Source of the DNA: Octopus vulgaris
Taxonomy: Eukaryota
Reading direction: 5' to 3'
DNA length: 64,000 bases
Assembly: GCA_951406725.2 (NCBI GenBank)
Contig: OX597820.1
Span: 36,828,001 to 36,892,000 of the forward strand
The stretch's first letter is position 1; every line of letters starts with the position of its first letter. This document shows, piece after piece, positions 3,001 through 42,000 of this stretch. A program made the position numbers.

Positions 3001-6000
3001 CTAACTTTTTCTTAACTACAACTTTAATCTTTATGCTTTCTAGTGATGTTGATTGTTCACAAATTCATTAAGTTGTTCTTGAAAAAAAAAAAAGTGATAT
3101 AAAAAAAATCATCAAATTTAGCTGAGTACCCTGTATGTGTGTGTGTGTGTGTGAGCTTTTACTAATCAATGCCATACTGTACAAAATAACTAGTTTTATT
3201 TAAAGTAAAGCATTTATATCAAATCATCCTACTTCAAAATACTTCTAATAGAAAGAAATGGTGAAATAGTTTTTATAGATTATTGCAACTTTAATTGAAA
3301 GACAGAAAAATACATTAATCACAAAATAGAACAGTTCATAGCATTAAAATGATGACAAATGTCTGTGTAAACAGAGTGGATATTAAAGTTAATAATTTAA
3401 AAATATATATTTTTGATCATTAATAATCTCATAAAGAGGTCTATAGGTTTATGTAAATTTCCTTTTATAAAACATTAAACTGCTTCATATTTACAATGTT
3501 TTAGCCAAATAAAGTCAAAATGACATGTAAGTCTATATTCAGTTCCATTGCCATGTTGTAGAACATTCTGGAAAGAAGTTTTTAAAAAGTATGTAGCTTA
3601 TGTTTGTCAGAGACAAACATTGTTATGAAAACATAGTTTTTATCCACTTTCTATAATGTTCCCAAAAAATTTCATTGCATTATGCCTCAGAAATTTGCTT
3701 GTGAATTCATGAAATTTTTCAAAATGATTCTATTCTTTTACTGTTACTTGTCCATGGGCCTTTTTTTTATGATGTGTCAAACTCCTATTCTCAGAGTAAG
3801 TTTTACCACAAATATCACAATGATATGGTTTTACACCAGTGTGTACAGGTTTGTGACGGTTTAAATTCTGATTGTCAGCATATGATTTGCCACAAATATC
3901 ACAAATGTATGGTCTTTCACCTGTGTGACCACGTATATGAAGTGTTAAATGACCTCTCTGAGAGAAAGATTTACCACAGGTATCACAGCGAAATGGATTC
4001 TCACCTGTGTGAATACGTACATGTTGAGTTAGATGACCATTCTGTGAGAATGTTTTCCCACAGATATCACAGTGGTATGGCTTCTCACCTGTATGGACAC
4101 GTACATGTTGAGTTAGATGACTATTGTCAGAAAACGTTTTACCACAGATTTCACAGTGGTATGGATTGTCACCAGTGTGCACACGTATATGCTTAGTTAA
4201 TGAACTATTGCCAGAAAATGTTTTACCACAAATATCACAATGGTATGGCTTTTCCCCAGTGTGTACACGTATGTGTTGAGTTAAACCACTTCTGTCAGAG
4301 AAATTCTTTCCACAAATATCACAGTTGTATGGTTTCTCACCTGTGTGCATGCGTATGTGTCTAGTTAATCTATTACTGTCACAAAATTTTTTTCCACAGA
4401 TATCACAGTGGTATGGATTATCACCAGCGTGCATGCGTACATGTCTTGTCAATGCACTGTTACCAGAAAATGTTTTTCCACAGGTATCACAAGGGAATGA
4501 CTTTTGTCTTATGTGAACCTGTTTGTGTCGAGTCAAACTATTACAGACAGAGAATGTTTTCCCACATATATCACAGTGATATGGTTTCTCACCTGTGCGA
4601 GTAAGTTTGTGATTAGTCATTTTACCTCCTTCAGAAAATATTTGCTTTCAACGGTATTAATGTATTTGTGTCTATTCAAATTATAAGTGAGAAAATGTTT
4701 CTGCATACCATGCTGATAATTCTTCTCCTAAATATATATATATATATGTGTGTGTATGTATATGTGTGTGTGTGTACAGTTAATTTATCATTCTGCAAGA
4801 AACTTTTCTCATAGATTTCAGTGATATGATTTCTCACCTGAATGAATATATTTGGATTTAGTCAAATACCTTACTGTGTGATTGTTCTACCATAGATATC
4901 ACAGTAGTTTAGCTTTTCACCAGTATGAACATATTTATGCTTGATCAAATTATTGTTGTCAGAGAAAATTTTGGCAAGATTATGCATTGGCAAGCTTTGT
5001 ATTTCTGAACATTTTTACAGAGACAGCTGTTTTTAGCAACTGATGTACTGTGAATCCTAATAGGTTTGAGTTGGCATGAAGTGTTCTATTGTGAATTATA
5101 AAAATTTTAATCTGGTATGAAGTAATTTTTGTTTAAATAAGGCATTAGATGATGTGAATACTTTCTTCCTGATGTTTTTGTGATGTGATTTATTCTGTAC
5201 ACCTACACATAACAGATTCTGTTTGTTACCATGCTTCATGTCTCAGTTGTAATATGTTTACAGTCTTAAATTAAATTTCAAAGTCACTTATTTGAGGTTA
5301 TAAAGAACAGCCACTTGTGTACTTCATAATGTATATCTTGTCTTCAAAACCTGACAGATTTCTTTAAATAAAAGGAATCTATCATTACCATTTCAATGTC
5401 ACCAGAAAACCTGAAATAAAAAATATAAGGTATAAAAGGACAATGAAAAGCTAACATGGAGGTTATTAGAGAAATGGGGCTTGACTAGATTGAATGATAG
5501 AATAATAAGGAAAGAGAAGACATGAAATAAATCATCTAAATTCCTGATCAAAAACTAGTCAGCTATTTTAAGGAGACTTGTTTCTTTTCAGCAATAACAC
5601 AATCAACACTGATAGAAATATCGACCATTTGATTACTTGTATATCCATACATTGTCAATGTGAATGGATAGTTGATCTTCAAATTGAAATAGTTTTATTG
5701 ATTTACTGATTGTTACATATATCTATGCAATAACGTAATTGTAAGGTCTGGATGCTGAACAAATTTAATTGGTTTCTTTTATTCCCCACCACTCCCAACA
5801 AAATATGTTAAAAGTTATTTTGAAAAGCAAAGCTATTGCAACATTTCGTCGTCATTATTATGTCCCTTTAATCAACGAACTTTACAATGAAGTCCGAGAA
5901 CATAGTTTCTGATTTCACTATTAACTTTTATTACAATGACTACGGAACACCGCTTGAGACTGAAATTGATAGAAAGTACTACAGGAGACATTGGACCTTT

Positions 6001-39000: not shown

Positions 39001-42000
39001 TTCATGAAAATAACAGTTCTTATAAATTCTTTATAATGTTTTATTCTTTTATTGTTTGTTTTGCATGTGCTTTTTCTTTATGATTAGACAAACTCCTATT
39101 CTCATTGTAAGTTTTACTACAGATATCACAATGATATGGTTTTACACCTGTGTGTACAGGTTTGTGACGATTTAAATTCTGATTATCAGCATATGATTTA
39201 CCACAAATGTCACAGCTATATGGTCTCACACCTGTGTGACCACGTATATGAAGTGTTAAATGACCTTTCCGTGAAAACATTTTACCACAGATATCACAAT
39301 GGTATGGCTTTTCACCTGTGTGAATACGTACATGCTGAGTTAAATGACCATTCTGTGAGAATGTTTTACCACAGATATCACAGTGGTATGGTTTCTCACC
39401 TGTGTGCAAGCGTATGTGTTTAGTTAATCCACTTTTGTCAAAGAACCTTTTTTCACAGATATCACAAGGGTATGGTTTCTCACCTGTGTGAATACGTACG
39501 TGTTGAGTTAAATGACCATTCACCGAGAATGTTTTACCACAGATTTCACAACGGTATGGATTATCACCTGTGTGCATGCGTATGTGTCTAATTAATGTAC
39601 TGTTGTCAGTAAATGTTTTGCCACAGATATCACAGCGGTATGGTTTGTCACCAGTATGAGTGCGTGTGTGTCTAGTTAATCTACTATTACTAGAGAATGT
39701 CTTTCCACACATATCACAATGGAATGGCTTGTCTCCTGAGTGAACATGTTTGTGATTAGTTAAGTTATTACATACAGAGAAGGTTTTCCCACAGATATCA
39801 CAGTGGTATGGTTTTTCACCAGTGTGAGTACGAATATGAAGTGTTAAATGACCCCTTTGGGAAAAAGTTTTACCACAGATATCACAGTGAAATGGATTGT
39901 CACCTGTGTGAATACGTACATGTTGAGTTAAATGACCATTTACAGAAAATGTTTTGCCACAAATGACACAGTGGTATGGTTTCTCACCTGTGTGCAAGTG
40001 TATGTGTTTAGTTAGTATGGTTTTGCCAGAGAATGCTTTTCCACAGATATCACAGTGATATGGTTTCTCACCAGTGTGAGCATGTTTGTGATTAGTCATA
40101 TTACCTTTTTCAGAGAAAGTTTTGCCACAGACACCACTGTAATATAGCTGTTTACTTGCGTGAATGGATATGAGTCTGCACAGAAAAGGACTTCTGGAGA
40201 ATGTTATAGCACAAATACAATATGTTTTGTCTCCTTTATGAGTAAATTTGTGAAGAATTTATTTATCAATTTAGAAGATGTTCTCCTCCAGATATCAAAG
40301 TTATATCGACTCTCACCTGAATGAATACATTGGTGTGTAGTCAAATGACCTTGCTCAGAGAATGGTCTATTACAAGTATAACAGTGTTATACCAGTATGA
40401 CACTGGTGCTTAGTCAAATTATTGTTACAGAACATTTGCCACAGATAATGTATTGCTAAATTCTTTCATCTGAGCAATTGTTTAAATAAGGTATTAGATT
40501 GAATAAATGTTTATTTGATATGATTTCTTATGTGTATCTACCTACACATGTCTGATAATATATTTTCCACATCTCAATTACACTGTTTATAACCTTGATT
40601 TTAATTTTACAGCAATGTGGAGTTATGGAGAACAATTACTTGTGAACTTGATAATATCATTCTTCTGTTTCCATAAACTGAAAAATTTCTTGAATCAGCA
40701 ATTTGCATTTCAATGTCACCACAAACTCTGAAATAAAGAATATATGGTAGAAAGAACAATGAAAATTTAACATGGAAGTTATTGAATGCTAAAATAACAA
40801 AGAAAGATCAGAAAATACCTACAGAGGAAAGACAACAATATGGCTATGTAGTGAAAATGAATGATCCTATGTGTGGCTAGAAAAATTTAGGAAGAAGATA
40901 ATATTGGGATACACAGATACATAGCAAAAGATACAAGAATGTTTTTAGTCAGACTTGTAGGAACAGATATCTCAGGGACATCATTTGCATTGAAAACTAT
41001 TGTTTAGTTACTATTAATATTTTTAATACAATTAGTATTAAAAAGCTAGGAAATAATGACATGGACAGTAAAACAATAATAGTCAGTGAAAAATATAATT
41101 ATTTTTGAAAACTCTCATCTGTTTCCAAGAAAGATAATATTTACCCTTGACTAGCCATGTTTTCTTTGTAGAATACAAGCAAAGGACACTACTTGTATGA
41201 CAGTGACGCTCATTTACAATTATCATGCAAAGGTAAGACAAGGGGAGACTAACATATACACACACACATATATATATATATATGTAAATATGTGTGTATA
41301 TCCTTGAATATATATATATATATATATGAGTGCAGGACAAAAGCCCCACGGTTATATTTTGCTTTTTTCACCTTTTACTTGTTTTAGCCATTAGATTGTG
41401 GCCATGCAGAGGAATCACCTTTTTTATTTTTACTTGTTGCAGTCATTAGACTGTGGCCATGCTGGGGCACCACCTTGAAGAATTTTTAGTCGAATGTATT
41501 GACGCCAAAATTTTTAAAAATTTTATTTGTTGCTGTTATTAGACTGTGGCCATACTAGGGCACTGCCTTGAAGATATTTTAGTTGCAGAAAAATCAGCAT
41601 TTTAAAATTTAAATTTAAAGTCTTTTGTTTTCTTCTCTCAGCACTTATAGATTAATGAGAATGGGCTGACCTTTTGAACTTTCTCTGGCCATAGAAGGTC
41701 TAACAGAATTATGGCGCTGAAGGCTCGTCCATTTGAACATACTTCTTATCGCTTTTATATTTCTGCACATTTTTTGAAGTAAATGCTTTCTCTTTTGTTA
41801 TAATTCAGGCAATACGTACATTGAATAGTAAAGTCTTGTGTTCTGTTATTCTATTCTACTTATTTATTTTCGATTGAATATATTTTGTTTACTTACTGGA
41901 ATTTTGGAAAATAAAAGTTTTTTAATAATTTTAATAGTCAGAACAGTTGTTAAAGGAGATCTCCTTTGTGTTTCAAGCACATTCAGAGACCTGGCTTTTC

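What the first reader, a model, noticed from the sequence alone, without database searches (positions are those of the whole stretch)
4600..40550. Finger graveyard: three paralogs begin at the same internal Met of a dead finger
Seen: Z3 and Z5 finger 5 carries Met at the helix position normally held by Leu (ERGSMTKH, QRGSMVKH). Z1, Z2 and Z4 all begin at the homologous Met (EGGK-MTNHK, KRGN-MTNHK, EKGN-MTNHK). Upstream, their fingers 1-5 are destroyed by lesions that differ between the genes, while the downstream 10-14 fingers are clean. The Z3/Z5 leaders are themselves about two decayed fingers. Inference: arrays erode from the N-terminus, coding DNA becomes 5' UTR, and the helix Met serves as a built-in restart point that changes DNA specificity.
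Basis: partly seen in the sequence, partly recalled or inferred. Interest (0 to 1): 0.75.

Follow-up and report, generated by a model that had tools for sequence, protein, structure and literature searches.

The report
Beheaded zinc-finger genes still under selection
Three of five neighbouring zinc-finger genes have lost their first five fingers to decay but keep the remaining fingers intact under selection, probably after one ancestral truncation that left an internal methionine as the first usable start.

Summary
The window holds five tandem C2H2 poly-zinc-finger paralogs on the minus strand, about 11.6 kb apart. Z3 and Z5 are whole. In Z1, Z2 and Z4 the open frame begins at the Met that replaces the core Leu of finger 5. 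Upstream DNA aligns in register with the Z3/Z5 leader and fingers 1-5 but carries 9, 12 and 12 disabling lesions per 192 codons. The 296, 431 and 352 codons downstream carry none (Poisson P <= 1e-6).

Upstream evolves about neutrally (dN/dS 0.67-0.86). Downstream is constrained (0.13-0.22, as in the intact pair). So these are not plain pseudogenes.

The interpretation needs trimming:
- Z3 and Z5 have no other in-frame Met between their start and finger 5, so any 5' lesion gives this same first Met.
- Shared lesions and substitutions point to one ancestral truncation, not three.
- Erosion is not only N-terminal: Z3 lost finger 12 and Z2 finger 6.
- Use of the Met as start codon, and the 5'UTR status of the dead fingers, remain untested. 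No transcripts or orthologues were available.

This is a new variant of known zinc-finger array turnover, of moderate interest.

The parts
3730..4620 (-). Z1 open frame from the finger-5 Met to the stop: 296 codons, a half-finger remnant (MTNHKLTRTGEKP) and 10 intact C2H2 fingers
   Evidence: PF00096 E=3.6e-63; private-substitution omega 0.21, P=7.5e-5
4621..5232 (-). Z1 dead leader and fingers 1-5: 6 frameshifting indels, 3 projected stops, a 25-nt deletion removing the Cys half of finger 5, and a CA/TA microsatellite in fingers 3-4
5236..5527 (-). Conserved upstream element of Z1 (TATA-like box, invariant ACATTGAAATG)
14986..16281 (-). Z2 open frame from the finger-5 Met: 431 codons, finger 6 broken in frame (16174-16242), then 14 intact fingers
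   Evidence: omega 0.25, P=0.003
16282..16880 (-). Z2 dead leader and fingers 1-5: 8 frameshifting indels, 4 projected stops; the ancestral ATG is followed at once by TGA
16897..17259 (-). Conserved upstream element of Z2
27290..28462 (-). Z3, intact N-terminus: 84-residue leader of ghost fingers and 11 fingers; finger 5 carries the Met at 27829
27150..27289 (-). Dead finger 12 of Z3 behind its stop codon (TGA, 4-nt deletion, Cys codons lost)
28948..29333 (-). Conserved upstream element of Z3
39041..40099 (-). Z4 open frame from the finger-5 Met: 352 codons, 12 intact fingers
   Evidence: omega 0.56, P=0.15, not significant; 0 lesions in 352 codons
40100..40566 (-). Z4 dead leader and fingers 1-5: 6 frameshifting indels, 6 projected stops; the last 53 codons before the Met are open but lack an ATG
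40583..40942 (-). Conserved upstream element of Z4
50323..51609 (-). Z5, intact: 89-residue leader (three ghost fingers) and 12 fingers; finger 5 carries the Met at 50961
51920..52266 (-). Conserved upstream element of Z5

Best explanation
The window holds a tandem cluster of five effector-less C2H2 poly-zinc-finger paralogs.

In one ancestor of Z1, Z2 and Z4, a lesion in the 5' part of the coding exon cut off translation from the original start. The best candidate is the 1-nt deletion in the A-run of finger 3. The first in-frame ATG still followed by an open frame was the Met that had replaced the core Leu of finger 5.

Selection has since kept the frame from that Met onward. The leader and fingers 1-5 have decayed neutrally and independently in each copy. 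The retained arrays changed by internal duplication of F6-F10-type fingers, giving 10, 14 and 12 fingers against 7 in Z5.

**Shown here:** the homology, the lesions, the contrast in selection, and the shared characters.

**Inferred:** that translation starts at this Met, that the dead fingers are transcribed as 5'UTR, and that DNA specificity changed.
For: - **Alignment.** It is in register and the ATG falls in one column in all five genes.
- **Lesions.** There are 9, 12 and 12 upstream per 192 codons and 0 in 296, 431 and 352 downstream codons. Poisson P(0) is 9e-7, 2e-12 and 3e-10.
- **Zinc ligands.** Upstream, 8, 14 and 14 of 20 are kept. Downstream, all are kept in 10, 14 and 12 fingers.
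- **Pairwise dN/dS among truncated genes.** Upstream it is 0.79, 0.86 and 0.67, with confidence intervals that include 1. Over the last four fingers it is 0.13, 0.22 and 0.21. The intact pair Z3-Z5 gives 0.23 and 0.14.
- **Substitutions private to one gene, downstream.** Z1 has 15 synonymous and 13 non-synonymous (omega 0.21, P = 7.5e-5). Z2 has 10 and 10 (0.25, P = 0.003).
- **Upstream versus downstream private changes.** 20 synonymous and 67 non-synonymous against 18 and 20; Fisher P = 0.011.
- **No other Met.** Z3 and Z5 have none in frame before finger 5.
- **Start context.** A stands at -3 of the Met in all three truncated genes.
- **Single origin.** Z1 and Z2 share a TAA in finger 2. All three have a deletion at the same column of finger 3. 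They share AAW before the ATG and AAT at codon 3. All three lack the 300-500 nt segment that Z3 and Z5 have before their ATG. The tree of the upstream element groups (Z2,Z4) at 89 and (Z3,Z5) at 79.
- **Upstream element.** It is better conserved than the dead fingers in two of the three truncated pairs: Z2-Z4 40/206 against 138/439 differences, P = 0.001; Z1-Z4 P = 0.018; Z1-Z2 P = 0.32.
- **Neutral yardstick.** Syntenic intergenic DNA is 62-75% identical.
Against: - There is no transcript, ribosome or peptide evidence of any kind.
- None of the five predicted proteins is in the protein collection (0 of 5), and no orthologue was found.
- If transcripts start at the conserved upstream element and are unspliced, 16, 10 and 8 ATGs precede the Met.
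- Z4's own branch is not significantly constrained: 7 synonymous and 16 non-synonymous, omega 0.56, P = 0.15.
- Z4 has 53 open codons before the Met, which leaves room for another entry into the frame.
- Trees of the dead segment are star-like (support 45). In the 3' fingers Z1 sits next to Z3 (p = 0.085), which hints at gene conversion.
- The shared TAA (Z1+Z2) and the shared 10-nt deletion in the upstream element (Z2+Z4) conflict as clade markers.
- The shared 1-nt deletion lies in a homopolymer run, where parallel loss is easy.
Confidence: 0.6

Rival explanations
1. Z1, Z2 and Z4 are functional, but the finger-5 Met is not their start. An unrecognised upstream exon or a non-AUG codon supplies the N-terminus, and part of the decayed region is removed as an intron.
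For: - The conserved upstream element contains a pyrimidine tract followed by TTTCAG, which looks like a splice acceptor.
- The interval between that element and the start is not depleted of ATGs even in the intact genes, which have 12 and 8. Some splicing or a nearer transcription start is therefore likely in all five genes.
- Z4 has 53 open codons before the Met.
Against: - In Z1 only 9 codons are open before the Met, and in Z2 only 27.
- GT directly after the invariant ATG of the upstream element is present only in Z1 and Z3, so a micro-exon donor is not conserved.
- Stop-to-stop peptides of 25 aa or more from the intergenic intervals (1315 peptides) gave no match at a consistent position and orientation between units. 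All matches were interspersed repeats.
- No effector domain was found in Pfam.
Confidence: 0.2
2. Z1, Z2 and Z4 are dead genes. Their downstream arrays look clean because of gene conversion from working neighbours, or because death was recent.
For: - No expression evidence exists.
- Z2 finger 6 is broken.
- Z4's private omega of 0.56 is not significantly below 1.
- The Z1 and Z3 3' fingers are unusually similar (p = 0.085), which suggests conversion does happen here.
Against: - There is no disabling lesion in 1079 downstream codons in total, against 33 in 576 upstream codons.
- The upstream parts of the same genes have drifted at dN/dS 0.67-0.86 over the same period, so the 5' lesions are old.
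- Synonymous divergence between downstream arrays is large (pS 0.24-0.51), so there has been no recent homogenisation.
- Substitutions private to Z1 and to Z2 are themselves biased to synonymous changes. Conversion cannot produce that bias.
Confidence: 0.12
3. This is the reader's version: three independent N-terminal truncations converged on the same Met because it acts as a built-in restart point.
For: - Most lesions are private to one gene.
- The tree of the dead segment is star-like, with an internal branch of about 0.01.
- The shared markers conflict with each other: TAA in Z1+Z2 against a 10-nt deletion in Z2+Z4.
Against: - Z1, Z2 and Z4 are united by a short leader, the missing 300-500 nt segment, a deletion at one column of finger 3, and two substitutions flanking the Met.
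- Private lesions are expected after a single founding lesion.
- Even if the events were independent, the same Met would result by default, because no other in-frame Met exists.
Confidence: 0.15

Closest known systems
Finger gain, loss and inactivation among poly-zinc-finger paralogs (Emerson and Thomas 2009, PMC2604467; passages read)
   Same: These are tandemly duplicated C2H2 genes whose paralogs differ in finger number through duplication, deletion and mutational inactivation of fingers. Structural residues are under purifying selection.
   Different: That work describes whole-finger indels and loss of Cys/His ligands within an intact frame. It raises 'pseudogenes with N-terminal deletions' only as a possible annotation problem. 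Here five N-terminal fingers are out of frame and decaying while the rest stays under selection. The genes here also have no KRAB, SCAN or BTB domain.
C-terminal truncation that leaves fingers in the 3'UTR, such as human ZNF252 (PMC2865497; passages read)
   Same: Finger-coding DNA is stranded outside the open frame of a gene that still has an open frame. Z3 finger 12 is a direct example in this window.
   Different: In Z1, Z2 and Z4 the stranded fingers lie on the 5' side. A new start codon is therefore needed, and the ribosome must get past the dead fingers. I found no description of this in four full-text searches.
Lineage-specific tandem C2H2 expansions in invertebrates, such as coleoid cephalopods (PMC12513265, passages; PMC10547256, listing only)
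   Same: Both involve clusters of KRAB-less poly-zinc-finger genes. The CDICGK-type fingers resemble an Octopus bimaculoides protein (P0074, 53% identity).
   Different: The organism of the window was not identified. The best hits are no closer than 54%. The passages I read do not deal with gene structure, pseudogenes or truncation; those terms occur 0 times in the text.
N-terminally shortened proteins made from a downstream in-frame AUG (general mechanism; recalled, no call)
   Same: An internal Met serves as start and gives a protein that lacks N-terminal modules.
   Different: In the known cases both forms usually come from one intact mRNA by leaky scanning. Here the long form is destroyed, and the short form would be the only product.

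Membership tests
C2H2 (Krueppel-type) tandem zinc-finger proteins | Repeated 28-residue units C-X2-C-X12-H-X3-4-H | tested here: met
   There are 10, 14, 11, 12 and 12 canonical units in Z1-Z5. Tandem arrays with an 84-nt period are found in all five genes. PF00096 E-values range from 3.9e-61 to 1.1e-92.
C2H2 (Krueppel-type) tandem zinc-finger proteins | Conserved H/C linker of the TGEKP type between fingers | tested here: met
   Linkers such as TGEKP, TGDNP, TGENP and TGERP are seen throughout. PF13465 (zf-H2C2_2) E-values range from 2.4e-81 to 1.3e-121.
C2H2 (Krueppel-type) tandem zinc-finger proteins | Sequence-specific nucleic-acid binding | not testable with these tools
KRAB-, SCAN- or BTB-zinc-finger genes of vertebrates | N-terminal effector domain on upstream exons | tested here: not met
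   Pfam found only zinc-finger families in the five proteins and nothing in the Z5 leader. No exon-like peptide is conserved at a matching position between the intergenic intervals. Only 5 other ORFs were scanned against Pfam, not all six frames.
Pseudogene (non-functional gene copy) | Disabling lesions and neutral evolution across the former coding sequence | tested here: not met
   The feature is met only for the 5' third: 9, 12 and 12 lesions, dN/dS 0.67-0.86. It is not met from the Met onward: 0 lesions in 296, 431 and 352 codons, dN/dS 0.13-0.22. For Z4 alone the branch-specific test is inconclusive (omega 0.56, P = 0.15).
Gene translated from a downstream in-frame start after 5' truncation | The candidate ATG is the first in-frame ATG of the surviving open frame and has a usable context | tested here: met
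   It is the first Met of each stop-to-stop frame. A stands at -3 in Z1, Z2 and Z4.
Gene translated from a downstream in-frame start after 5' truncation | An mRNA that contains the ATG, and ribosomes that initiate on it | not testable with these tools
   No transcript or ribosome data are available. There are 16, 10 and 8 upstream ATGs if transcription starts at the conserved element.
Cephalopod lineage-specific C2H2 expansion | Origin from a coleoid cephalopod genome and placement inside an expansion clade | tested here: inconclusive
   The best identity to any database protein is 54%. One Octopus bimaculoides hit reaches 53%. A reverse-transcriptase ORF matched only unnamed records (46 of 46). 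The taxon was not established.

The most novel reading that the evidence does not exclude
Poly-zinc-finger arrays carry latent start codons that arise by single conservative changes: the core Leu to Met at helix position +4, or the linker Thr to Met. These let an array survive loss of its 5' end.

On this reading, beheading is a recurrent route to new DNA-binding proteins. This family would show two rounds of it:
- An older round made the present start of Z3 and Z5. That start sits at the linker position, MADKLY/MENKLC against TGEKPY, in front of three ghost fingers.
- A younger round made Z1, Z2 and Z4 at the finger-5 Met.

The dead fingers would then persist as a long 5' leader rich in upstream ATGs, which could also tune translation.
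Probability: 0.3. Interest if true: 0.6.

Novelty: new variant of a known kind. Interest (0 to 1): 0.42.

Why it matters
Zinc-finger arrays are known to change by gaining, losing and inactivating fingers. Truncation at the 3' end by a stop codon is also documented. This cluster shows the 5' counterpart.

The first five fingers are reduced to out-of-frame wreckage. The rest of the array has stayed under purifying selection for a long time (synonymous divergence 0.4-0.9) and has even grown by internal duplication.

If the internal Met is indeed the start, this is a clean natural case of a transcription-factor paralog made by beheading. It would have a different finger set and a leader built from its own dead fingers.

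The case also carries an annotation lesson. Such genes look like pseudogenes to homology-based pipelines, and like short ORFs with odd 5' regions to ab initio ones.

It does not open a new class of mechanism. Within this window it rests on what is probably a single event.

Tried and rejected
- **Exact look-up of the five predicted proteins:** 0 of 5 are in the collection.
- **Orthologue search with Z5:** 7682 hits at E <= 1e-20 among 8000 scored candidates. The 120 best listed were generic poly-zinc-finger proteins at 54% identity or less.
- **Search with the Z5 leader, residues 1-100:** 37 candidates, none at E <= 0.001.
- **Taxon through a reverse-transcriptase ORF:** 46 hits, all from unnamed records, so no taxon was obtained. 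I did not follow those records.
- **Micro-exon idea:** a splice acceptor TTTCAG, 22 nt, then a donor after the invariant ATG. Rejected, because GT follows the ATG only in Z1 and Z3.
- **Precise loss of an intron in Z1, Z2 and Z4:** rejected by eye. The boundaries of the missing 300-500 nt do not fall on GT...AG.
- **A conserved upstream coding exon:** none was found. The intergenic matches are interspersed repeats at inconsistent positions and orientations.
- **Phylogeny to decide between one and three events:** not decisive. The upstream element gives (Z2,Z4) 89 and (Z3,Z5) 79. The dead segment is a star (support 45). The 3' fingers put Z1 with Z3 at weak support (66-68). No outgroup was available.
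- **Leader against Pfam:** no family. BLASTP against the gene's own fingers did show the ghost fingers.
- **Not used:**
  - Genome contigs and the phage, plasmid and E. coli collections, which hold no animal DNA.
  - Metagenome contigs and viral contigs, which were closed.
  - Supplementary files, of which none were opened.

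
Full report
**What is in the window**

The window is AT-rich (G+C 0.32-0.42 in 4-kb steps) and has no N. Five long open frames made of C2H2 zinc fingers lie on the minus strand, 11.4-12.1 kb apart:
- Z1 3730-4647
- Z2 14986-16362
- Z3 27290-28477
- Z4 39041-40258
- Z5 50323-51654

These are stop-to-stop coordinates. Tandem Repeats Finder reports an 84-nt period array in each gene. Pfam finds only zinc-finger families in the five proteins: PF00096 E-values run from 3.9e-61 to 1.1e-92, with no KRAB, SCAN or BTB domain. 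It finds nothing in the Z5 leader.

The paralogs are old. Coding parts are 72-84% identical at the DNA level. Syntenic stretches of the intergenic DNA are only 62-75% identical.

I do not take the window for human. The best identity of Z5 to any database protein is 54%.

**Check of the observation**

In Z3 and Z5, finger 5 has Met at the position where every other finger has the hydrophobic-core Leu. In Z1, Z2 and Z4 the first Met of the open frame is that same residue.

In an L-INS-i alignment of the five 5' regions, the ATG falls in one column (window 4620, 16281, 27829, 40099, 50961). The DNA upstream of it in Z1, Z2 and Z4 aligns in register with the leader and fingers 1-5 of Z3 and Z5.

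| Gene | Frameshifting indels (per 192 codons) | Projected stops | Zinc ligands kept (of 20) |
|---|---|---|---|
| Z1 | 6 | 3 | 8 |
| Z2 | 8 | 4 | 14 |
| Z4 | 6 | 6 | 14 |
| Z3 | 0 | 0 | 20 |

These counts are projected on the Z5 frame.

Downstream of the Met there are 10, 14 and 12 canonical fingers and no stop or frameshift in 296, 431 and 352 codons. With the upstream lesion rate, the Poisson chance of no lesion downstream is 9e-7, 2e-12 and 3e-10.

The leaders of Z3 and Z5 are indeed ghost fingers. Z5 residues 7-88 align without a gap to three consecutive fingers (E = 2e-15). The Z3 leader does so more weakly (E = 2e-5).

- The stated coordinates miss the body of Z1 and all of Z5.
- Z2 finger 6 is broken in frame.
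- There are about three ghost fingers, not two.
- Some lesions are shared between genes (see the section on one event or three).

**Are the truncated genes alive?**

Nei-Gojobori estimates are as follows.

| Region | Truncated pairs | Intact pair Z3-Z5 | All ten pairs |
|---|---|---|---|
| Last four fingers | 0.13, 0.22, 0.21 (upper bootstrap limits 0.25-0.44) | 0.14 | 0.12-0.22 |
| Dead region (Z5 codons 25-215) | 0.79, 0.86, 0.67 (intervals include 1) | 0.23 | not summarised |

Pairwise values mix two lineages. I therefore also counted substitutions private to one gene.

| Gene | Downstream syn / non-syn | Downstream omega | P under neutrality | Upstream omega |
|---|---|---|---|---|
| Z1 | 15 / 13 | 0.21 | 7.5e-5 | 1.11 |
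| Z2 | 10 / 10 | 0.25 | 0.003 | 0.68 |
| Z4 | 7 / 16 | 0.56 | 0.15 | 0.72 |

None of the three upstream values is significantly below 1.

Pooled over the three genes, the contrast between upstream (20 synonymous, 67 non-synonymous) and downstream (18, 20) gives Fisher P = 0.011. None of Z4's 14 private amino-acid changes hits a zinc ligand, and 7 fall in the recognition helix.

So Z1 and Z2 are clearly constrained from the Met onward. For Z4 the case rests on the intact frame and ligands, not on the branch test.

Recent gene conversion cannot explain the clean arrays. Synonymous differences between them are large (pS 0.24-0.51). The private changes of Z1 and Z2 are themselves biased to synonymous ones.

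**Is the same Met a coincidence that needs explaining?**

No. Z3 and Z5 have no other in-frame Met between their start codon and finger 5 (sequences). Any lesion in the first 210 codons leaves this Met as the first ATG of the surviving frame. The next in-frame Met would be in finger 7.

The Met is a conservative replacement of the core Leu and is present in all five genes. It predates the truncation.

**One event or three?**

Most lesions are private. Several characters nonetheless unite Z1, Z2 and Z4 against Z3 and Z5:
- A leader shortened by about 45-53 nt just after the ancestral ATG.
- Absence of a segment that separates the conserved upstream element from the ATG in Z3 and Z5. The distance from the element to the ancestral ATG is about 150-165 nt in Z1, Z2 and Z4, against 647 and 447 nt in Z3 and Z5.
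- A deletion at the same column in the A-run of the finger-3 CGK codons: 1 nt in Z2 and Z4, 2 nt in Z1.
- Two substitutions flanking the Met: AAW instead of AGY before it, and AAT instead of AAR at codon 3.

Z1 and Z2 also share a CAA-to-TAA stop in finger 2.

Against a tidy picture:
- Z2 and Z4 share a 10-nt deletion in the upstream element, which conflicts with the Z1+Z2 stop.
- The 1-nt deletion lies in a homopolymer.
- Trees are weak. The upstream element gives (Z2,Z4) 89 and (Z3,Z5) 79. The dead segment is a star (support 45). The 3' fingers place Z1 next to Z3 (p = 0.085), perhaps through conversion.
- No outgroup was available.

The order along the strand is Z5 whole, Z4 cut, Z3 whole, Z2 cut, Z1 cut. 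Together with the tree of the upstream element, this fits duplication of a two-gene unit. I judge a single ancestral truncation more likely than three (about 0.7).

**Direction of erosion**

Erosion is not only N-terminal.
- Z3 ends one finger early. The DNA behind its TGA is a recognisable but dead finger 12, with a 4-nt deletion and lost Cys codons, and it still ends at the ancestral TAG position.
- Z2 finger 6 lost a Cys and several codons while staying in frame.

The truncated genes have also grown. Every extra finger is closest to Z5 finger types F6-F10 and none to F1-F5. The arrays after the Met have 10, 14 and 12 fingers, against 7 in Z5 and 6 in Z3.

**What remains unknown: the transcript and the start**

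A stretch of about 300-400 nt upstream of all five genes is conserved. It includes an invariant TATATT, a pyrimidine tract with TTTCAG, and ACATTGAAATG. In two of the three truncated pairs it is significantly better conserved than the dead fingers next to it (P = 0.001 and 0.018; the third pair gives P = 0.32). This suggests the truncated genes still use it.

It could be a TATA-plus-initiator promoter, since the spacing fits. That reading is my inference. It could also be a splice acceptor.

If transcripts started there and were unspliced, 16, 10 and 8 ATGs would precede the Met. But 12 and 8 would also precede the starts of the intact genes, close to the number expected from base composition. 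So the interval cannot be read as a plain 5'UTR in any of the genes.

Other points on the start:
- A micro-exon ending at the invariant ATG is ruled out as a common feature, because GT follows it only in Z1 and Z3.
- No conserved exon-like peptide lies at a matching place in the intergenic intervals.
- The frame is open for only 9 codons before the Met in Z1, 27 in Z2 and 53 in Z4.
- A at -3 is present in all three.

I therefore hold the Met as the most likely start (about 0.6-0.7, given that the genes are functional). This is an inference.

**Comparison with what is known**

Finger duplication, deletion and inactivation among poly-zinc-finger paralogs are established (PMC2604467, passages read). 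So are degenerate fingers, and fingers stranded behind a premature stop in a 3'UTR, as in ZNF252 (PMC2865497, passages read).

Tandem KRAB-less C2H2 expansions are described in cephalopods and other invertebrates (PMC12513265, passages; PMC10547256, listing only). The passages of PMC12513265 that I searched do not mention exons, pseudogenes or truncation.

Four full-text searches turned up no description of a 5' truncated array kept under selection with its dead fingers upstream. This is not proof of absence. Subscription journals are not in the library. An older analysis of KRAB zinc-finger gene evolution that I recall (Looman and colleagues, 2002) could not be checked. No supplementary files were opened.

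**A further lead**

The start of the intact genes sits where a linker would be. MADKLY (Z3) and MENKLC (Z5) align to TGEKPY directly in front of the first ghost finger. This hints at an earlier round of the same process. It rests on six residues and is only a lead.

**Verdict**

It is a new variant of known zinc-finger array turnover. Interest is 0.42.

**Not checked**
- Transcripts.
- Orthologues, because none were found.
- The organism, which was not identified.
- The closed metagenome and viral collections.

Noticed in passing
5236-5527, 16897-17259, 28948-29333, 40583-40942, 51920-52266 (minus strand): A 300-400 nt element is conserved upstream of all five genes, although the flanking intergenic DNA is barely alignable. 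It has an invariant TATATT about 31 nt before ACATTGAAATG, and a pyrimidine tract ending in TTTCAG. The invariant ATG opens a 15-codon upstream ORF with the same stop in Z1, Z3 and Z5. A shared 10-nt deletion makes it 35 and 33 codons in Z2 and Z4.
   Followed up: partly
28475-28950 and 51621-51910 (minus strand): Z3 and Z5 carry about 480 and 290 nt between the upstream element and their ATG that Z1, Z2 and Z4 lack. TTTATAA-like direct repeats flank the segment. Just before the ATG lies a pyrimidine tract followed by AG. It may be an insertion, a deletion in the other lineage, or a 5'UTR intron.
   Followed up: partly
27150-27289 (minus strand): The last finger of Z3 is dead and lies behind its stop codon, with a TGA, a 4-nt deletion and lost Cys codons. 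This is erosion at the C-terminal end.
   Followed up: yes
16174-16242 (minus strand): Finger 6 of Z2 is broken but in frame (HCDIEEKIFSLLANHKQV). It sits directly after the putative start remnant.
   Followed up: partly
28445-28462 and 51592-51609 (minus strand): The start of the intact genes (MADKLY, MENKLC) aligns to the linker TGEKPY in front of the first ghost finger. This hints that the present start arose inside an older, longer array.
   Followed up: partly
about 4715-4770 (minus strand): A CA/TA microsatellite has replaced the junction of dead fingers 3 and 4 in Z1.
   Followed up: no
3832-4077 versus 27293-27538: The three 3' fingers of Z1 and Z3 differ at only 8.5% of sites, against 11-17.5% for the other pairs. 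Gene conversion between a truncated and an intact paralog is possible.
   Followed up: no
58863-59392: A GC-rich tandem array with a 61/123-nt period and 93% matches. It is related to dispersed copies at about 10.2-10.6 kb, 33.0-33.4 kb, 25.1-26.4 kb and 46.1 kb, in both orientations. It is probably a SINE-like repeat family.
   Followed up: no
56601-57122 (minus strand); also 8514-9029 and 14063-14533: These look like retrotransposon fragments. The first ORF matches RVT_1 (E = 1.3e-10) and is up to 71% identical to unnamed database proteins. The other two ORFs have no Pfam match; I read them as retrotransposon pieces by eye only.
   Followed up: partly
18536-18798 (plus strand): Weak zinc-finger-like similarity on the opposite strand (tblastn with Z5, best E = 7e-4). 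It lies inside a repeat that also occurs at 30.7-31.0 kb and 47.0-47.4 kb.
   Followed up: no
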